A DNA stretch of 64,000 nucleotides, taken from the NCBI RefSeq assembly GCF_056746865.1, contig NZ_CM163382.1; one strand, written 5' to 3'. Position numbers and translations under genes: made by a program. The stretch's first letter is position 1. Each line of letters opens with the position of its first letter. The notes under the pieces are model-generated. The model did no database searches and was not told where the DNA came from. It saw only the letters and a program-made list of their open reading frames with translations. This document shows positions 2,751 to 48,802 of this stretch, in pieces.

Positions 2751-3465
2751 TGCACAGAAAACCCCCAGCTAGGCTGGGGGTTCCGGAAAGCTTTCAGCTT
2801 TGAGCCAGTTATTAAAACCCCTTTTGATTTGTTAAAACACCTTGCGGTCTGGCAACTGCAAGTGTCAAACAAGAAATCAAAAGGGGGTCCCAATGGGGAA
2901 CGAAAAGAGCTTAGCGCACACCCGATGGAACTGTAAATATCACATAGTTTTTGCGCCAAAATACCGAAGACAGGTGTTCTACAGAGAGAAGCGTAGAGCA
3001 ATAGGCAGTATTTTGAGAAAGCTGTGTGAGTGGAAAAGCGTACGGATTCTGGAAGCTGAATGCTGTGCAGATCATATCCATATGCTTGTGGAGATCCCGC
3101 CTAAAATGAGCGTATCCGGGTTTATGGGATATCTGAAAGGGAAAAGCAGTCTGATGCTTTACGAGCAGTTTGGTGATTTGAAATTCAAATACAGGAACAG
3201 GGAGTTCTGGTGCAGAGGGTACTACGTCGATACAGTGGGTAAGAACACGGCGAAGATACAGGATTACATAAAGCACCAGCTTGAAGAGGATAAAATGGGA
3301 GAGCAGTTATCGATTCCCTATCCGGGCAGCCCGTTTACGGGCCGTAAGTAACGAAGTTGGATGCAAATGTCAGATCGTGTGCGCCTGTTAGGGCGCGGCT
3401 GGTAAGAGAGCCTTATAGGCGCATTTGAAAAACCTCCGGCTATGCCGGAGGATATTTATTTAGTT
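2751..3465 (+). mobile_element. IS200-type element (IS200/IS605 family); ends approximate
   Basis: About 710 bp extra DNA between fabF and pabC; perfect 8-bp/3-nt-loop hairpins near both ends (2762-2780 and 3433-3451); RBS-sequestering stem-loop (2818-2886) just before the tnpA start. Confidence 0.7.
2893..3351 (+). CDS. tnpA: IS200 transposase TnpA (Y1 HUH type, 152 aa)
   Basis: Product MGNEKSLAHTRWNCKYHIVFAPKYRR...HIHMLVEIPP... matches the recalled IS200 TnpA sequence; HUH motif (HIH) present. Confidence 0.9.
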   Translation: MGNEKSLAHTRWNCKYHIVFAPKYRRQVFYREKRRAIGSILRKLCEWKSVRILEAECCADHIHMLVEIPPKMSVSGFMGYLKGKSSLMLYEQFGDLKFKYRNREFWCRGYYVDTVGKNTAKIQDYIKHQLEEDKMGEQLSIPYPGSPFTGRK

Positions 3466-42493: not shown

Positions 42494-43240
42494 ATGAAAA
42501 ACATTGCGGCAGTTGGGGTTCTTGAACGTATTCGCAGACTTGCACCACAGGGGTCGGTTCCACCGTACCGGACGGTGGAGGAGTGGCGGGAATGGCAACT
42601 TGCTGAAGGACGAAAACGCAGCGAGGAGATTAACCGCCAGAATCGCCAGTTGCGGGTGGAAAAAATCCTGAATCGTTCGGGCATCCAGCCTCTGCACAGC
42701 AAATGCTCGTTTGCAAATTATCAGGTGCAGAACGACGGGCAAAAATACGCGCTGAGCCAGGCCAAATCCATAGCTGACGAACTGATGACCGGGTGCACGA
42801 ATTTTGTGTTCAGCGGTAAAACCGGCACCGGGAAAAATCACCTTGCAGCGGCGATGGGCAACCGGCTGATGGTGAAGGGGCGCAGCGTGATTATCGTCAC
42901 CGTGTCTGACGTCATGAGCGTGTTGCATGACAGCTACGACAACGGCAAATCCGGGGAAAAATTTTTACAGGAGCTTTGCGGGGTTGATTTGCTGGTCCTG
43001 GATGAAATAGGCGTTCAGCGGGAGACGAAAAACGAGCAGGTGGTATTGCACCAGATAATTGATCGCCGGACAGCATCACTGTGCAGTGTCGGGATGTTAA
43101 CAAACCTGAATCATGCCGCAATGAGTACGCTTCTTGGTGAGAGGATTATGGACCGCATGACCATGAACGGTGGTCGATGGGTGACGTTTAACTGGGATAG
43201 CTGGCGTCCAAATGTCAGCAATATGAGGGTTGTGAAGTAA
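42494..43240 (+). CDS. DnaC-like helicase loader (IstB-type AAA+ ATPase)
   Basis: Walker A GKTGTGKNHLAAA and Walker B LLVLDEIG. Confidence 0.85.
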   Translation: MKNIAAVGVLERIRRLAPQGSVPPYRTVEEWREWQLAEGRKRSEEINRQNRQLRVEKILNRSGIQPLHSKCSFANYQVQNDGQKYALSQAKSIADELMTGCTNFVFSGKTGTGKNHLAAAMGNRLMVKGRSVIIVTVSDVMSVLHDSYDNGKSGEKFLQELCGVDLLVLDEIGVQRETKNEQVVLHQIIDRRTASLCSVGMLTNLNHAAMSTLLGERIMDRMTMNGGRWVTFNWDSWRPNVSNMRVVK

Positions 43241-43261
43241 TTTTGTCCGGAGGAAATTTTA

Positions 43262-44032
43262 ATGGAAACCGTATCTGACGCACTGAAAGCACTGAAAAAA
43301 GCCTCTTCACATGTGGTGGCAGCTCGCCTTGGAATCAGTCGTGAAGAGGCTGTCAACGAGCTGTGGGAACTCAAAAGAAATGGCGTCGTTGATAAAACTG
43401 GTCACACCTGGTTTCTGGCTGGCGAAGGTGAATCCCGGGTAACCGAAGAGCGGCCAGTAAAATCTGAAGCACAGGATATGCTGACCGGGGAGGTCGAACA
43501 AAAAGTTACCGCAGACATGATGATTGAGTTTATCGGTCAGGATGGGGCTAAAACGTGTGAGGAACTGGCGGGTAAGTTCGGTGTCAGTACTCGCAAGGTT
43601 GCTTCCACGCTGGCGGTGGTAACCGCAACGGGGCGGCTGGCACGCGTTAATCAGAACGGTAAATTTCGTTACTGCATGCCGGGCGATAATTTACCAGCAG
43701 AGCCGAAAGCCGCGCTGGTAACGGAAAGTGATGGTAAGGCCTTTCCTCAGCCAGCAGGTGCTGCGTTACCAGGCCGGGAAGCCGCAACACAGGAAGAAAT
43801 TAAAACAGAAACTGTGGCGGACATTGTGCAGTCGTTGCCATCGTTTACCGAAACGCAAGCAGATGAGCTGATTTTTCCGTCCCTGCGCAGGGCAAACCTG
43901 GCGCTGCGCAGGGCGAAAAGTGATGTTCAGAAGTGGGAGCGAGTCTGCGCCGCGCTGCGGGAGCTGAACAAGCACCGGGATATTGTTCGACAGATTACTG
44001 ATTCTTCCCGCCGTGTTGTATCGGAAAAGTGA
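43262..44032 (+). CDS. hypothetical phage protein
   Basis: 256-aa ORF with AGGAGG-like RBS; N-terminal region may be winged-helix. Confidence 0.55.
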   Translation: METVSDALKALKKASSHVVAARLGISREEAVNELWELKRNGVVDKTGHTWFLAGEGESRVTEERPVKSEAQDMLTGEVEQKVTADMMIEFIGQDGAKTCEELAGKFGVSTRKVASTLAVVTATGRLARVNQNGKFRYCMPGDNLPAEPKAALVTESDGKAFPQPAGAALPGREAATQEEIKTETVADIVQSLPSFTETQADELIFPSLRRANLALRRAKSDVQKWERVCAALRELNKHRDIVRQITDSSRRVVSEK

Positions 44033-44047
44033 TTGCCGGAGGCGCTT

Positions 44048-44470
44048 ATGGCAAAAGTATTTACACAAGAAGAGCGGGAAAAAATTAAAGGGCAGGTTGT
44101 TGAACTTGTACGTCTGAGCGGTCGCGAGACGTTGCGGCAACTGGAAGCCAAGACAGGTGCGACAAGATATCTGATGAGTGTTCTCGCCAGAGAGCTGGTT
44201 GCCAGTGGCGATGTATACAACTCTGGTTACGGGTTATTCCCGTCTGAACAGGCGCGTAAGGACTGGCAAAACGCCCGCAAAAAACTCTCAAGGGCAAATC
44301 TGAAGAAACCATCTGTGGTTGATCCTGACCTTATCTGGCCATTACCAGACGGCGAAATACGCCGCTACGACAGGCGTCAAAACATAATCTGTAGCGAGTG
44401 CCGGAAGAGCGAAGCTATGCAGCGTGTACTGGCTTTCTATCAGGGTAATTTTCAGAAGGTGCTGTTGTGA
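44048..44470 (+). CDS. hypothetical phage protein
   Basis: ATG 7 nt after GGAGG; track ORF 44033-44470 begins at an upstream TTG. Confidence 0.5.
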   Translation: MAKVFTQEEREKIKGQVVELVRLSGRETLRQLEAKTGATRYLMSVLARELVASGDVYNSGYGLFPSEQARKDWQNARKKLSRANLKKPSVVDPDLIWPLPDGEIRRYDRRQNIICSECRKSEAMQRVLAFYQGNFQKVLL

Positions 44471-44575
44471 GCCAAATTAACAATCGGAACTTCGTGAAGA
44501 GAAAGCATAATCCAAATCTGAATAATTAAGTTCAGCACTGTAAATAAAATTTAATCCTTAACTGGAGGTATATCT

Positions 44576-44689
44576 ATGTCAAATACACAGAAAATTATTA
44601 ACACTGAAAAATATAACGAGTGGGTGAAAAATTCTCTGAGCAGATTTTTAAAATTACTGGCGACGAGAATGTGGCAAAAAATGAATTAG
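44576..44689 (+). CDS. hypothetical 37-aa ORF
   Basis: ATG 8 nt after GGAGG at the end of repeat motif copy A; an overlapping alternative frame exists. Confidence 0.25.
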   Translation: MSNTQKIINTEKYNEWVKNSLSRFLKLLATRMWQKMN

Positions 44690-44819
44690 AACCGTGGACA
44701 CCTGAAGGAAACGCACCAAATTATTGCTGGTGGGAGGTTGATCCGGTTGATGCTGCAAATGAAGCCATGAGTTACCACAACGATTAATGTCGGGAGGCCG
44801 CCCGAAAGGGCGGTAAGAA

Positions 44820-45038
44820 ATGACTACATTATTCAGAAAAGAATATCCGCAAAAAAGTAGGGCGACAGAATTTTTGTTTCTCATTCTGTTTATCGTATTG
44901 ATGATACCGATATCCCCTCTAATTTTTGTCTGGGCAATCGGGAAAATAATTGAGCCAGTTTCTGAATTGTATAACGACGTGGTGTGGGCGTCATTCAACA
45001 CACTGCACAATAAAATTAATCCGTATAAGGAAAACTGA
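44820..45038 (+). CDS. small hydrophobic protein
   Basis: 72-aa ORF preceded by SD-hairpin element copy 1; one predicted TM segment. Confidence 0.5.
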   Translation: MTTLFRKEYPQKSRATEFLFLILFIVLMIPISPLIFVWAIGKIIEPVSELYNDVVWASFNTLHNKINPYKEN

Positions 45039-45039
45039 T

Positions 45040-45243
45040 ATGGCAACTTTGACAAAAAAAGAACGGGCATGGTTGAACGAATTACAGGAAGTTCTTGATC
45101 GCTGTCCATCACCGAAAAAATTGGCTTTTACACCATTGGCGATAAAAGCATTTACCTGTATGACCTACGCCGCATGGATGAAATCATGGAGGCTCTTGAT
45201 AATCGTTCGTCGATGGATTGGTGTGTTGCTGTTCATGATATGA
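45040..45243 (+). CDS. hypothetical protein, possibly frameshifted
   Basis: MATLTKKERAWLNELQEVLDRCPSPKK...; a protein-like continuation exists in another frame to 45302. Confidence 0.3.
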   Translation: MATLTKKERAWLNELQEVLDRCPSPKKLAFTPLAIKAFTCMTYAAWMKSWRLLIIVRRWIGVLLFMI

Positions 45244-45433
45244 ATGCAGGGTTTGATGAAAAGATTTTGTTCCCCTCATCAGTTGAAAGCACTGCGGGTT
45301 AAGGAGTAACACATGACCACTATTACCAAAGAACGTATTGAATTGTTCATTAAATTTTCAGGAGGCGGTACTGTGAGTGAAATTAGCTATCAGGCTTCAA
45401 TTACCGCTGGCATTCGCATCAAAGGAGAGGAGC

Positions 45434-45790
45434 ATGGAAATAAAACCAGAGGATGAGTTAAGCAATATCGTTTTATTTCCGGTAAAAGAGGATGACCCTC
45501 GTAATCAGGTTAATTTTCTTTATGAGCCATCGGAAAGACCATATTGTCATCACGCCTCTGTCCGGGTTGACGAAAAAGAGCGTCAGGTCCGCTGTAAAAT
45601 CTGCGGTGCAGTTGTGGAACCATTTGACTGGATGCTCTCTGTGGCGAAAAGAGAAACCAGACTGGCAGATGATGTAAGGCTCTTGCGTCAGGAGGAGCGG
45701 GAAAGGCGAAAAAATATAGAAAAGCTAATTCAGATTGAGCGTAACGCGAAAGCGCGGATACGCAGGGCGACAAAATCCAGAACTGAATAA
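45434..45790 (+). CDS. hypothetical Cys/His-containing protein
   Basis: ATG after AAGGAGAGGAG; product has CHH...C..C cluster (putative zinc site). Confidence 0.5.
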   Translation: MEIKPEDELSNIVLFPVKEDDPRNQVNFLYEPSERPYCHHASVRVDEKERQVRCKICGAVVEPFDWMLSVAKRETRLADDVRLLRQEERERRKNIEKLIQIERNAKARIRRATKSRTE

Positions 45791-45883
45791 TTAAATTTAG
45801 CTCTGTTAAAAATTTAATCCTTAACCGGAGGGATTTCTGCACCCTCAGAACATCAGGAGGCCGCCCGAAAGGGCGGTAGTTAA

Positions 45884-46066
45884 ATGCGAAAGTTTAAAAT
45901 AATTATTGAAACGGGAATAGCCGGTGGAGATTTCGAGGATGAATTCGAAGTGGATGATGATGCGACGCCTGATGAAATACATGACGAAGCAAAAGATATT
46001 TTCTTTAACTACTGCAATTACTCATATCACGAAATAAAAGACGAAGAGGAAGAACAAAATGGCTGA
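45884..46066 (+). CDS. small acidic protein
   Basis: 60-aa ORF preceded by SD-hairpin element copy 2. Confidence 0.5.
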   Translation: MRKFKIIIETGIAGGDFEDEFEVDDDATPDEIHDEAKDIFFNYCNYSYHEIKDEEEEQNG

Positions 46067-46235
46067 TTTTGGTTCAACTAAATACAACGTCGGTTTTGAA
46101 GAATGGCATGAACTGTTAATGGACTATGCAGAGTTACGTGGTGGCAGTGCTGCTGATGCTGAAGCATGGCGTGATGATTATGAAGCAGGAAAAACTCCGG
46201 TCGAAGCATATTGTGATGAGTGGGGCGATGAATGA
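46059..46235 (+). CDS. hypothetical 58-aa protein
   Basis: Manual translation MADFGSTKYNVGFEEWHELLMDYAELRGGSAADAEAWRDDYEAGKTPVEAYCDEWGDE; start overlaps the preceding stop. Confidence 0.3.
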   Translation: MADFGSTKYNVGFEEWHELLMDYAELRGGSAADAEAWRDDYEAGKTPVEAYCDEWGDE

Positions 46236-46717
46236 GCGAGGTTAATTATCAGGAAGGGCATGAAACGGCGGGGCAAGCAAAAACAGTGGCATGGCGATAT
46301 CGCTACGTGAAAAAAAGGCGTTACGGACTTTCAGGGGAAGTAGTGGTCTGGTGACTGGAAATATGTACCGAAAAAAGAGGATTGTAACGACAGGCCGAAC
46401 TATGAAATTCAGGCCTTATTCACTGCCCCGCCAGTCCCGGTTACATCAGAAGAACTGGTTAAAGCTGTGCACTTTTATGAACAACTAAAATGCGAAAATC
46501 CACCAGCATCCGGAAACCTGATTACAGATTCCCAGATAAGGCAATGAGCTACCTGGCGCAGAACGGGCTGATAAGTATGGGGAATGTTTTACGATGAATA
46601 TTTAGACTAAAGAGTTTGTAACGCTATGTAAGTGATTTTTTCTGGTTTAGATATTTATATGTCCGGCTAAATTGAGGTGTGTTTAAATGTTATTGCACAT
46701 TGATTGTAGGGGGAATA

Positions 46718-46897
46718 ATGAAAAACGCATTGCAGTTTTTGTTTGTTGCGTTCTGGTTGTTCGCATCATGTATGCCCATCATCTTCACAGCAAGGTATAT
46801 GGAAAAAGTTGATGTTTTGATATTAATGTTTGGACATATAAATGCCCTTTTTTTAGGGGTGTTCATGGCGGTCATGTGCATTGAATACTGGCGGTAA
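46718..46897 (+). CDS. small membrane protein (AT-rich gene)
   Basis: ATG after AGGGGGAATA; product MKNALQFLFVAFWLFASCMPIIF... with two hydrophobic segments. Confidence 0.4.
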   Translation: MKNALQFLFVAFWLFASCMPIIFTARYMEKVDVLILMFGHINALFLGVFMAVMCIEYWR

Positions 46898-47155
46898 ATA
46901 CAGCGAACGCCATTGGTTTAGTTGGATATTTACTGTGCCGGACAAAAACGGTTTGCGGGGAAATCTTAGTTAAGTAGAATGACTGCGGGTGCTTGAGGCT
47001 ATCTGTCTCAGGCATGAACACCAAAAGGCAGATAGAGAAAAGCCCCAGTTAACATTACGCGTCCTGCAAGACGCTTAACATTAATCTGAGGCCATATCTA
47101 TGCGACACATAGAGATTAGCCTCTTACGGACCGAAAGGTCAAGGAGAAGCAGGCT

Positions 47156-47311
47156 ATGAAGCAGCAAAAGGCGATGTTAATCGCCCTGATCGTCATCTGT
47201 TTAACCGTCATAGTGACGGCACTGGTAACGAGGAAAGACCTCTGCGAGGTACGAATCCGAACCGGCCAGACGGAGGTCGCTGTCTTCACAGCTTACGAAC
47301 CTGAGGAGTAA
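47156..47311 (+). CDS. hok: Hok/Gef-family type I toxin (51 aa)
   Basis: MKQQKAMLIALIVICLTVIVTALVTRKDLCEVRIRTGQTEVAVFTAYEPEE matches the recalled HokD/RelF sequence; short overlapping upstream ORF 47100-47159 (mok-like); 3' stem-loop 47319-47340. Confidence 0.8.
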   Translation: MKQQKAMLIALIVICLTVIVTALVTRKDLCEVRIRTGQTEVAVFTAYEPEE

Positions 47312-47478
47312 GAGACCAGGCGAGGGGGAAATCCCTCGCCACCTCTGATGAGTCAGGCATCCTCAACGCACCCGCACTTAACCCGCTTCGGCGGGTTTTG
47401 TTTTTTCCTGGCATTCTGGTTTACAATTCGCACGTCAGCCTGAACACCTGACACCTGCTGCGCCAGTAGAGAAAACAG

Positions 47479-47751
47479 ATGGCGCACAAAACCAAATTTC
47501 ACAATTCTGATACCGACCTTGCCATCCGGCATGGGCGGCGTTCACACGCATTTAAAACCGACTGGTACCAACACCCACCATGTACTGAAGAACAGGCCGA
47601 ATGGCTAATTCATAACTACCGCAGACGCGGATACGAGATTAAGAAAGCCCTCAGCCTCGATTATCGTCACTGGATAATCTATGTCAGGCTCCCTTATTCC
47701 GAACGCTCACCGCGCCCATCCCGCACATTCCAGCAACGCATCTGGAGGTAA
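47479..47751 (+). CDS. hypothetical protein (Rem-position)
   Basis: 90-aa ORF between hok and the DUF968 gene, the position of rem in the Qin hokD-rem-ydfU arrangement. Confidence 0.45.
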   Translation: MAHKTKFHNSDTDLAIRHGRRSHAFKTDWYQHPPCTEEQAEWLIHNYRRRGYEIKKALSLDYRHWIIYVRLPYSERSPRPSRTFQQRIWR

Positions 47752-47752
47752 C

Positions 47753-48802
47753 GTGCGGATATTACTTCGACCTGTTCTGGTACCGGAACTCGGGCTGGTG
47801 GTCCTTAGGCCGGGCCGTGAATCCATGCCGGTATTCCACAATACCCGGGTACTGGTGGAGCCTGAACCGAAAAGCATGCACGGTCTGCCGTCCGGAGTCG
47901 TCCCTGCCGTTCGCCAGCCGCTGGCGGAGGATAAATCATTTCTGCCATTTTTCAGCGATGAGCGGGTGATTCGTGCTGCTGGCGGCGCTGGGGCACTGTC
48001 TGACTGGCTGTTGCGTCATGTCAAATCCTGCCAGTGGCCTCATGGTGACTATCATCACAGTGAAATCGTCATACATCGTTACGGTACCGGCGCGATGGTG
48101 TTGTGCTGGCACTGCGACAACCAGTTGCGCGACCAGACCTCCGAATCACTCGGGCAACTTGCTCATCAAAACCTGTCAGCATGGATGATTGACGTCATAC
48201 GCCATGCAATGAATGGCACGCAGGAGCGGGAATTGTCGCTGGCTGAATTATCCTGGTGGGCGGTCCGCAATCAGGTGGCGGACGCGCTACCGGAAGTGGT
48301 ATTACGTCGTTCGCTGGGGTTGCGTGCGGAAAAAATCCGCTCAATGTACCGTGAAAGCGACATCGTACCGGGAGAGCAGACCGCCACCAGCATACTGAAA
48401 CAGCGCACAAAAAATATTGCGCCGCTGCCTCACGCCCACCAGCAACAGAACCCACCACAGGAAAAGACGGTGGTCAGCATTGCCGTTGATCCTGAGTCTC
48501 CGGAATCTTTCATGAAACGACCTAAACGTCGCCGCTGGGTTAACGAGAAATACAAACGCTGGGTGAAGACACAGCCGTGTGCGTGTTGTGGTAAGCCAGC
48601 CGACGATCCCCATCACCTGATTGGTCATGGTCAGGGCGGAATGGGGACAAAATCTCACGATATTTTCACGCTACCGCTGTGTCGGGAGCATCACAACGAG
48701 CTTCATGCGGATCCTCTGGCGTTCGAACAAAAGCATGGTTCTCAGGTTGATTTAATTTTTCGTTTTCTTGATCACGCCTTTGCAACTGGCGTGCTTGGGT
48801 AA
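47753..48802 (+). CDS. DUF968-family (YdfU-like) protein with C-terminal Cys/His motif
   Basis: GTG start 3 nt after GGAGGTA; C-terminal ...CACCGKPADDPHHLIGHGQGGMGTKSHDIFTLPLCREHHNELH; track ORF 47681-48802 is an upstream extension. Confidence 0.7.
   Translation: MRILLRPVLVPELGLVVLRPGRESMPVFHNTRVLVEPEPKSMHGLPSGVVPAVRQPLAEDKSFLPFFSDERVIRAAGGAGALSDWLLRHVKSCQWPHGDYHHSEIVIHRYGTGAMVLCWHCDNQLRDQTSESLGQLAHQNLSAWMIDVIRHAMNGTQERELSLAELSWWAVRNQVADALPEVVLRRSLGLRAEKIRSMYRESDIVPGEQTATSILKQRTKNIAPLPHAHQQQNPPQEKTVVSIAVDPESPESFMKRPKRRRWVNEKYKRWVKTQPCACCGKPADDPHHLIGHGQGGMGTKSHDIFTLPLCREHHNELHADPLAFEQKHGSQVDLIFRFLDHAFATGVLG

What the first reader, a model, noticed from the sequence alone, without database searches (positions are those of the whole stretch)
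44518..45831. Two copies of a ~50-nt intergenic motif ending in GGAGG
CTGAATAATTAAnTTnAGCnCTGTnAAnAAAATTTAATCCTTAACnGGAGG occurs at 44518-44568 and 45783-45831 at about 80% identity, each beginning at or near a stop codon and ending in an SD. Repeated intergenic boxes in a nin region could be conserved translation-initiation regions, a promoter or terminator, or short homology blocks that mediate module exchange between lambdoid phages.
Basis: seen in the sequence. Interest (0 to 1): 0.35.

Follow-up and report, generated by a model that had tools for sequence, protein, structure and literature searches.

The report
Shared junction sequence between prophage genes
The two repeats are copies of a roughly 95-base spacer that sits between small accessory genes in E. 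coli prophages, where it marks the point at which gene blocks get swapped and probably supplies the ribosome-binding site for whichever gene follows; it is a clear example of a known idea rather than a new kind of system.

Summary
The repeat is real: 44506-44575 matches 45771-45838 at about 82-90% identity, with none expected by chance.

A second repeat, GGAGG followed by the hairpin GCCGCCC-GAAA-GGGCGGT, lies at 44790-44815 and 45853-45878. The two repeats are the left and right halves of one ~95-nt intercistronic element.
- Copy 2 (45783-45877) is the common intact form.
- Copy 1 is split by a 213-nt gene, X.

Evidence from other genomes:
- The element occurs in 2393 of 5426 complete E. coli genomes, always co-oriented with its flanking genes where annotation was available.
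- In 120 sampled instances it joins 9 unrelated upstream flank families to 13 unrelated downstream ones, in 30 combinations.
- Similarity collapses at both of its edges.
- Left-half variants track the upstream gene, and sites just past the hairpin track the downstream gene.
- Linkage between adjacent 150-nt windows breaks only across it.

So mosaic breakpoints do map to it, as in the lambdoid "boundary sequence" idea. No promoter, terminator or Rfam family matches.

The right half looks like a portable split ribosome-binding site. A strong SD is followed by a -13 to -16 kcal/mol hairpin, then an ATG 6-11 nt later, in 7 downstream flank families. This resembles T4 genes 38 and 25, but it is inferred, not shown.

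Verdict: a new member of a known kind, of moderate interest.

The parts
44518..44568 (+). Element copy 1, left half (A1). It comprises TGAATAATTAA (stop codons in all three frames), the weak hairpin CTGAAT/GTTCAG (44518-44535), an AT-rich stretch, and GGAGG (44564-44568), which acts as the SD of gene X. Homology with copy 2 extends left to 44506.
44576..44787 (+). Gene X, the optional cargo between the two halves of the element. It is 70 aa when intact (phrog_4659, function unknown). In this window it is frameshifted by loss of one A in the run at 44627-44631.
44792..44814 (+). Element copy 1, right half (B1): SD-like GGGAGG (44792-44797) abutting the hairpin GCCGCCC-GAAA-GGGCGGT (44797-44814). 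The ATG of the DUF4014 gene is at 44820, 5 nt after the stem.
45783..45877 (+). Element copy 2, the intact 'empty' form. Its features are:
- TGAATAATTAA, containing the TAA stop of the 118-aa gene (45788-45790)
- hairpin H1 (45783-45800)
- an AT-rich stretch
- GGAGG (45827-45831), sequestered in hairpin H2 (45828-45846)
- SD AGGAGG (45855-45860)
- hairpin H3 (45860-45877)

Homology with copy 1 extends left to 45771.
45884..46066 (+). The DUF7167 gene served by copy 2. Its ATG is 6 nt after the hairpin and 23 nt after the SD.
45434..45790 (+). The 118-aa gene (phrog_1621; weak zinc-ribbon match). Its last codons, ...ACT GAA TAA, lie inside the left edge of copy 2. It is the commonest upstream partner of the element (flank family U0).
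44820..45038 (+). The DUF4014 gene served by copy 1's right half (downstream flank family D1).

Best explanation
The two motifs are copies of one ~95-nt intercistronic junction element of E. coli temperate-phage accessory-gene regions. Its consensus is CTGAATAATTAA-ATTTAGCACTGTAAATAAAATTTAATCCTTAACCGGAGG-GATTTCTGCACCCTCAGAACATCA-GGAGGCCGCCCGAAAGGGCGGTA. It lies on the sense strand of the operon, starting at the stop codon of one small gene and ending 6-11 nt before the start codon of the next.

It appears to work in two ways.

1. **Shown by comparison.** Because the same ~95 nt lies between many unrelated gene pairs, it is the place where homologous recombination between co-resident or co-infecting phages reassorts the gene blocks on either side. 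It is a boundary, or linker, sequence. Gene X is an optional cassette carried between the two halves, so it can be gained or lost by crossovers in the left and right halves. The direct repeat in this window is also a substrate for deleting 44518-45782.

2. **Inferred.** The right half is a portable translation-initiation region. A strong SD (AGGAGG) is separated from the ATG by a very stable GNRA-loop hairpin that shortens a 23-27 nt spacing to an effective 6-10 nt. Most downstream genes have no SD of their own.

The role of the AT-rich left half in the empty form is not established.
For: **One element with two halves**
- Of 133 instances of the left-half core, the hairpin half follows at 24-25 nt in 101 and at 224-225 nt (gene X between) in 19. 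The rest are cut by contig ends or carry hairpin variants.

**Reassortment at the element**
- 120 instances give 9 upstream x 13 downstream flank families that are unrelated at DNA level, in 30 combinations.
- Downstream products D0, D1, D2, D6, D11 and D12, and upstream products U0, U2 and U7, are also unrelated as proteins.
- Column conservation is at least 90% from CTGAATAATTAA to GGGCGG and collapses on both sides.
- Variable sites left of the core track the upstream family (normalised MI 0.7-1.0). Sites after the hairpin track the downstream family (0.8-1.0). The central ~70 nt tracks neither.
- Conditional entropy between adjacent 150-nt windows is 1.83 and 1.20 bits across the element, against 0.00-0.88 for the eight other adjacent pairs within 750 nt.

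**Breakpoints in named phages**
- ArgO145 has g118-A-X-B-DUF7167 and g211-A-B-DUF4014. The window has LygF-A-X-B-DUF4014 and g118-A-B-DUF7167.
- Rac 442/2 has LygF-A-B-DUF7167, the arrangement expected from a deletion between the window's two copies.

**Abundance**
- 2393 of 5426 complete E. coli genomes carry it, at 3255 places and up to 5 per genome.

**Translation-initiation reading**
- The ATG lies 6-11 nt after GGGCGG in 7 downstream flank families; six of the seven were compared as proteins and are unrelated.
- Anti-SD duplex energy is -7.4 to -9.7 kcal/mol for the SD before the hairpin. It is +2.2 to -1.2 for the spacer after it in 6 of 7 families. Hairpin stability is -13 to -16 kcal/mol.
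- 96% of stem cells are paired. C-to-U changes that keep U-G pairs on the sense strand number 19 cells, against 1 for the mirror G-to-A change. The loop is GAAA or GGCA, both GNRA.
- Diversity within one flank class is 0.033 in the element, against 0.046-0.092 at third codon positions of the neighbouring genes.

**Precedents**
- Boundary sequences in lambdoid phages: Clark 2001 and Susskind & Botstein 1978, as cited in PMC3029335.
- Split SD-AUG regions of T4 genes 38 and 25: PMC3014915.
Against: - Covariation in the three hairpins is not distinguishable from shuffles: score 0.091 vs 0.090, with one compensatory cell. RNA structure is therefore conserved but not proven to be selected.
- One stem position (G to A, giving A-C) is a mismatch on the sense strand in 6 distinct sequences.
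- The sample was chosen by an exact 22-nt core, so conservation of that core is by construction and diverged relatives are under-sampled.
- The three-frame stop cluster is no more frequent than chance: 5 in the window against 7.9 expected. Only one of its frames is used by long upstream ORFs.
- No expression data were available, so neither translation from the split site nor crossover frequency has been measured.
- The element's diversity equals that of neighbouring coding DNA overall (0.033 vs 0.032-0.041). Constraint is therefore modest and could reflect gene conversion rather than function.
Confidence: 0.72

Rival explanations
1. Passive hitch-hiker. On this reading the element is merely the ordinary intergenic region of one ancestral gene pair, carried into new contexts by illegitimate recombination at gene boundaries. 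It is shared because of recent common descent, and it has no role of its own in promoting exchange or in translation.
For: - Its diversity equals that of flanking coding DNA.
- Covariation is not significant.
- Nested left boundaries (AATCCA... against CTGAATAA) and a copy truncated inside the left half (L042) show that non-homologous joints also occur.
- Hendrix-type models, as summarised in PMC3029335, explain most mosaic joints this way.
Against: - At least 20 independent illegitimate events landing on the same two edges would be needed to create 9 x 13 contexts.
- Linkage decays inside the element, not at its edges.
- Linkage breaks in both directions only there.
- Six of seven downstream gene families lack their own SD, so they depend on the element's SD.
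Confidence: 0.15
2. Regulatory or processing RNA signal. On this reading the AU-rich single-stranded stretch followed by a stable GNRA hairpin is an RNase E processing site, a 3'-exonuclease barrier, or the target of an RNA-binding protein (boxB-like). It would set the relative stability or expression of the cistrons on either side. Its use as a recombination site would be secondary.
For: - Three conserved hairpins give a fold z-score of -2.6.
- GNRA loops are retained, as GAAA or GGCA.
- Sense-strand wobble changes are favoured.
- The AT-rich left half is less diverse (0.026) than third codon positions (0.046-0.092).
Against: - No Rfam family matches, even at E <= 10.
- The opposite strand folds equally well, with z = -2.5.
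- There is no boxA, and the element is not near the early promoters; only two hairpin copies exist in the 64-kb window.
- No transcript-end data are available.
Confidence: 0.1
3. Promoter or intrinsic terminator inside the nin-type region.
For: - The left half is AT-rich and contains a TTTAAT hexamer.
- The right half has a GC-rich hairpin.
- Lambda's nin region is known to contain terminators (own knowledge).
Against: - The consensus scan finds no sigma-70-like site and no terminator-like site in either copy.
- The hairpin is followed by UAGUUAAAUG or UAAGAAAUG, not a U-tract.
- The best -35 candidates match at most 3 of 6 positions (read directly from the sequence).
Confidence: 0.03

Closest known systems
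Boundary (linker) sequences of lambdoid phages: Susskind & Botstein 1978 module hypothesis; Clark et al. 2001, coliphage HK620 (as cited in PMC3029335)
   Same: Both are short conserved sequences at gene boundaries, shared between otherwise unrelated neighbouring genes in different phages, and proposed to be the sites where homologous recombination creates mosaics. Here the flank reassortment, the edge collapse and the linkage switch were all measured.
   Different: The sequence itself is different: HK620 gave no match in the phage collection. This element is longer (~95 nt), has an internal anatomy of three hairpins and two SD-like sites, and can carry a gene between its two halves. I could not read Clark 2001 directly, so the comparison rests on how other papers describe it.
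Split Shine-Dalgarno/AUG initiation regions of phage T4 genes 38 and 25 (Nivinskas 1999; Malys & Nivinskas 2009; reviewed in PMC3014915)
   Same: In both, a strong SD lies too far from the AUG: 22 and 27 nt in T4, 23-27 nt here. A stable hairpin fills the spacer and brings the effective distance to 5-11 nt (6-10 nt here).
   Different: There is no sequence relationship. In T4 the arrangement belongs to one gene junction and was proven by mutation and probing. Here the same SD-hairpin unit serves at least seven different genes, and its function is only inferred.
Integron gene cassettes (attC-flanked) and phage morons
   Same: All are small accessory genes of unknown function that move as units between conserved flanking sequences. 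Gene X sits between the two halves of the element and is present in 19 of 120 full sites.
   Different: No integrase, attC fold, own promoter or own terminator is associated with the element. Exchange is presumably by general or phage-encoded homologous recombination. This is an analogy only.
boxB of lambdoid nut sites
   Same: Both have a GC stem closed by a GNRA-type loop (GAAA here; lambda's boxB has a GAAAA or GAAGA pentaloop, own knowledge) on an early-operon transcript.
   Different: This is a tetraloop on a 7-bp stem. There is no boxA, it is not located downstream of pL or pR, it is repeated at gene junctions, and it lies immediately between an SD and a start codon.

Membership tests
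Lambdoid boundary/linker sequence | A short conserved sequence located at gene boundaries, co-oriented with the operon | tested here: met
   It starts at or just after the upstream stop and ends 6-11 nt before the downstream ATG. It is on the same strand as the flanking genes in all annotated loci.
Lambdoid boundary/linker sequence | Shared by phages whose flanking genes are unrelated | tested here: met
   There are 9 upstream x 13 downstream flank families and 30 combinations. Flank products are unrelated by blastp.
Lambdoid boundary/linker sequence | Mosaic breakpoints map within it | tested here: met
   Supported by the edge collapse, the linkage switch inside the element, the entropy peak across it, and pairwise breakpoints against ArgO145 and Rac 442/2.
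Lambdoid boundary/linker sequence | Recombination frequency is actually elevated there in crosses | not testable with these tools
   This needs marked-phage crosses or induction experiments.
Split SD-AUG initiation region (T4 gene 38/25 type) | A strong SD more than 15 nt upstream of the start codon, with no usable SD nearer | tested here: met
   AGGAGG lies 23-27 nt upstream, with anti-SD duplex energy of -7.4 to -9.7 kcal/mol. The spacer after the hairpin gives +2.2 to -1.2 kcal/mol in 6 of 7 families; D6 has its own GGAG.
Split SD-AUG initiation region (T4 gene 38/25 type) | A stable hairpin fills the spacer and leaves an effective spacing of 5-11 nt | tested here: met
   A 7-bp stem with a GNRA loop has a stability of -13 to -16 kcal/mol. 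The distance from stem end to ATG is 6-11 nt in 7 families.
Split SD-AUG initiation region (T4 gene 38/25 type) | Hairpin-destabilising mutations lower translation and compensatory ones restore it | not testable with these tools
   The natural variation is suggestive only: 96% of cells are paired, there is one compensatory cell, and covariation equals shuffles.
Intrinsic (Rho-independent) terminator | A GC-rich hairpin followed by a U-tract | tested here: not met
   There is no terminator-like site in either copy. The tail is UAGUUAAAUG or UAAGAAAUG.
Sigma-70 promoter | -35 and -10 hexamers with 16-18 nt spacing | tested here: not met
   No site in the element reaches 9 of 12 matches.
Any described RNA family (Rfam 15) | A covariance-model match | tested here: not met
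   Nothing overlaps either copy, even at E <= 10. The only family match that passes its gathering score in 43000-48000 is sok, at 46987-47158.
Miniature transposable element (MITE-like) | Terminal inverted repeats at the two ends and target-site duplications | tested here: not met
   The only inverted repeats are the three internal hairpins. The left end (CTGAATAA) and right end (GGGCGGTA) are unrelated, and there are no flanking direct duplications in 25 aligned contexts.
nut site (boxA + boxB) | boxA followed by a boxB hairpin just downstream of an early promoter | tested here: not met
   No boxA-like sequence is adjacent. The two hairpin copies are the only ones in the window, and they lie about 1.7 and 2.8 kb downstream of the Cro gene, between accessory genes.

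The most novel reading that the evidence does not exclude
The element may be a selected cassette adaptor rather than a passive patch of homology. On this reading it is a portable unit made of a stop, RNA hairpins and a split ribosome-binding site. It guarantees translation of whatever gene recombines in behind it, and it offers ~95 nt of homology to phage recombinases. Together these would give E. coli temperate phages (lambdoid and P1-like) a recombinase-site-free counterpart of integron cassette exchange for small accessory genes. Gene X would be a cassette captured between its two halves.
Probability: 0.2. Interest if true: 0.55.

Novelty: new member of a known kind. Interest (0 to 1): 0.38.

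Why it matters
Whether phage mosaics arise at conserved linker sequences or by random illegitimate joins filtered by selection has been argued since 1978. Clear linkers have been hard to find at most boundaries.

This element is an unusually clean and abundant case:
- It is present in 44% of complete E. coli genomes.
- Both edges are sharp.
- Its partners are measurably reassorted.
- It carries an optional cargo gene.

It therefore offers a tractable substrate for measuring homology-driven module exchange and its dependence on Red/RecET-type recombinases. If the split ribosome-binding site is real, it would also explain how many orphan small genes of prophages get translated without an SD of their own. 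Annotation pipelines could use it to set start codons and to recognise cassette boundaries.

Tried and rejected
- **Rfam scan of 43000-48000 at E <= 10.** Nothing falls on the element.
- **Promoter and terminator consensus scan.** Nothing falls in either copy.
- **Covariation test of the three hairpins.** It is not distinguishable from shuffles, so I do not claim a proven RNA structure.
- **Three-frame stop cluster TGAATAATTAA as a universal translational stop adaptor.** Rejected as evidence. Such clusters are no more frequent than chance, and long upstream ORFs use only one of the three frames.
- **Covariance model of the element, searched over the window and 100 loci.** It found no diverged family members beyond those already known, apart from one truncated copy in L042.
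- **Scan of one genome per species (GTDB).** The first pattern was mis-spaced by one N and found nothing. The corrected pattern found only a 3-kb scaffold binned as Collinsella, probably a mis-binned E. coli phage fragment. Hence there is no evidence for the element outside Escherichia.
- **Literature search for the sequence itself.** No paper holds it.
- **Prophage Pas sRNAs** (bioRxiv 10.64898/2026.05.13.724894). These were checked because PasA and PasC lie near DUF1627 and RusA genes. The sections and term matches I checked do not link them to this element, and Pas sRNAs have terminator stems that this element lacks.
- **Whether the 24-nt spacer of the empty form is a deletion remnant of gene X.** The similarity at its ends is too weak to decide.

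Full report
**Observation**

The window around the finding is part of a Rac/Qin-type lambdoid prophage of E. coli. It is 100% identical to strain CFSAN061770.

The finding lies in the nin-type stretch between the replication genes (DnaC-like, DUF1627/YdaW, DUF977/LygF) and hokD, DUF968 and RusA. This stretch is filled with small genes of unknown function.

The reported repeat is real:
- 44506-44547 matches 45771-45812 at 81%.
- 44546-44575 matches 45809-45838 at 90%.
- A 2-nt indel separates the two blocks.
- These are the only two copies in 64 kb, with none expected by chance.

It is TCrGGAGGCCGCCCGAAAGGGCGGTA at 44790-44815 and 45853-45878, that is, GGAGG abutting the hairpin GCCGCCC-GAAA-GGGCGGT.

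The layout is:
LygF | A1 | gene X | B1 | DUF4014 - g87 - g47 - g118 | A2 - 24 nt - B2 | DUF7167 ...

**A and B are two halves of one element**

I collected 120 IMG/VR contigs carrying the core of A, plus annotated phage records.

Of 133 A cores:
- B follows at 24-25 nt in 101.
- B follows at 224-225 nt in 19, always with the same 213-nt gene X between.
- The remainder are cut by contig ends or have hairpin variants.

B was not found without A in these loci. In a few phage records (L128, L129) the left half upstream of the core is strongly diverged, so BLAST matches only from the core onward.

The window's copy 2 (45783-45877) is therefore the common intact form. Copy 1 is the same element with gene X inserted between A's GGAGG, which serves as X's SD, and B.

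**What flanks it**

- Clustering 200 nt on either side of 120 instances gives 9 upstream and 13 downstream families with no DNA similarity, in 30 combinations.
- The encoded proteins are also unrelated where they could be compared.
- In an alignment of one representative per combination, conservation is at least 90% from CTGAATAATTAA to GGGCGG. It collapses on both sides.
- Among 66 distinct sequences, variable sites in the left third of the element track the upstream family (normalised mutual information 0.7-1.0).
- Sites just after the hairpin track the downstream family (0.8-1.0).
- The central ~70 nt tracks neither, so crossovers fall inside the element.

As a control, I measured linkage between adjacent 150-nt windows out to 750 nt on each side.
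- Across the element, conditional entropy is 1.83 and 1.20 bits in the two directions.
- For the eight other adjacent pairs it is 0.00-0.88 bits.

Named examples agree:
- Phage ArgO145 has g118-A-X-B-DUF7167 and, further on, g211-A-B-DUF4014.
- The window has LygF-A-X-B-DUF4014 and g118-A-B-DUF7167. The blocks behind the two copies are swapped.
- Rac of strain 442/2 has LygF-A-B-DUF7167, the product expected from a deletion between the window's two direct copies.

**Distribution**

- The element is in 2393 of 5426 complete E. coli genomes, at 3255 places and up to five per genome.
- About 20 phage records carry it. They include Stx2a phages, a P1-like Punavirus and one record named for Actinobacillus.
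- An exact-pattern scan of one genome per bacterial species found only a 3-kb scaffold binned as Collinsella.
- It therefore looks confined to Escherichia temperate phages.

**Anatomy and likely mechanism**

The element begins with TGAATAATTAA, which has stops in all three frames.
- The long upstream ORFs of three unrelated families all end at the same GAA TAA.
- Such stop clusters are not rarer than chance.
- I therefore give the three-frame feature no weight.

The sense strand folds into three hairpins with a z-score of -2.6:
- a weak AU stem at the stop
- GAGGG/CCCUC, which buries the first GGAGG in the empty form
- the 7-bp GNRA hairpin

The start codon lies 6-11 nt after GGGCGG in seven downstream flank families; six of these were compared as proteins and are unrelated.

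The sequence before the hairpin pairs with the anti-SD at -7.4 to -9.7 kcal/mol. The spacer after it has no SD (+2.2 to -1.2 kcal/mol) in six of those seven families. The hairpin itself is worth -13 to -16 kcal/mol.

The linear SD-to-ATG distance of 23-27 nt is thus reduced to about 6-10 nt. The same arrangement is experimentally established for T4 genes 38 (22 to 5 nt) and 25 (27 to 11 nt) (PMC3014915).

Natural variants mostly keep the stem:
- 96% of cells are paired.
- 19 cells carry C-to-U changes giving U-G on the sense strand, against 1 for the mirror change.
- The loop is GAAA or GGCA.

However, covariation is not above shuffles, the other strand folds as well, and one A-C mismatch recurs. 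Within one flank class the element is about as diverse as coding DNA (0.033) and less diverse than third codon positions (0.046-0.092).

I therefore treat the recombination-junction role as shown by comparison. The split ribosome-binding site is the best-supported inference, and the function of the AT-rich left half is unknown.

**Rivals**

- Promoter and terminator readings fail the consensus scans, and there is no U-tract.
- No Rfam family matches.
- A MITE-like element is excluded by the absence of terminal inverted repeats and target duplications.
- A nut-like boxB is excluded by position, by the lack of boxA, and by the tetraloop.
- A purely passive hitch-hiker reading cannot be fully excluded. 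It fits poorly with linkage decaying inside the element, the two-way entropy peak, and the downstream genes' lack of their own SD.
- An RNA-processing or stability signal remains possible and needs transcript-end data.

**Comparison with what is known**

The concept is the boundary, or linker, sequence of lambdoid phages: Susskind & Botstein 1978 and Clark et al. 2001, as described in PMC3029335. Homology-driven mosaicism is supported experimentally by Martinsohn et al. 2008 (PMC2327257).

This particular sequence does not appear in the searchable literature or in Rfam. It is a new, well-delimited and very abundant member of that known kind, with two extra features: an SD-hairpin unit that serves many genes, and an optional cargo gene.

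**Verdict**

- The initiation-region idea is partly supported.
- The promoter or terminator idea is not supported.
- Interest is moderate.

Noticed in passing
window 44627-44631 and 45115-45120; also 46232-46597: Gene X and the 87-aa gene are each broken by loss of a single A in a homopolymer run (A5 vs A6, and A6 vs A7, relative to ATCC 25922), and are otherwise identical. RefSeq marks these two and a third neighbouring gene as frameshifted. This is either real decay of the prophage or homopolymer sequencing error shared by three assemblies.
   Followed up: partly
window 44447-44485 vs 45353-45391; mini-ORF 44467-44529: This is a second junction block, at 77% identity. The last codons of LygF resemble the middle of the 47-aa gene. 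Both contain CAGrAGG followed by a GTG that starts a tiny ORF family (MSEISYQ..., phrog_37408). After LygF the GTG overlaps the stop (GTGA) and opens a 20-codon ORF that runs into copy 1. It looks like another boundary sequence, or an internally deleted small gene.
   Followed up: partly
window 46987-47158, 47156-47311, 47320-47401: A sok antisense RNA (Rfam, 106.7 bits) lies beside hokD. Just downstream there is a weak isrK-like match (26 bits, below the gathering score) ending in a terminator-like hairpin at 47380-47397. This may be an unannotated prophage sRNA.
   Followed up: no
L005 (MH160767, Punavirus), PP818812 (Actinobacillus phage vB_Apl-pPE4), L130 (Collinsella MAG scaffold JAIHTM010000290.1): The same element, with its E. 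coli-type neighbour genes, occurs in a P1-like phage, in a phage record attributed to Actinobacillus, and in a 3-kb scaffold binned as Collinsella. This is either cassette spread across phage types or host mis-assignment and mis-binning.
   Followed up: no
L042 6269-6318: A copy of the left half, following the 118-aa gene, is truncated at AATCCTTAA and joined to unrelated DNA. This is an example of a non-homologous joint inside the element.
   Followed up: partly
loci aligned (e.g. L003, L043, L056, L021): Several downstream gene families that are otherwise unrelated share their first ~7 codons (M-T/A-E-L-T-K...). In those cases the shared block extends past the hairpin into the coding sequence, so the boundaries are nested.
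   Followed up: no
window ~50296-51524 (L001 12297-13525): An IS3-family transposase with a programmed frameshift is inserted in the prophage downstream of the DUF1133 gene. This is another sign that the prophage is defective.
   Followed up: no
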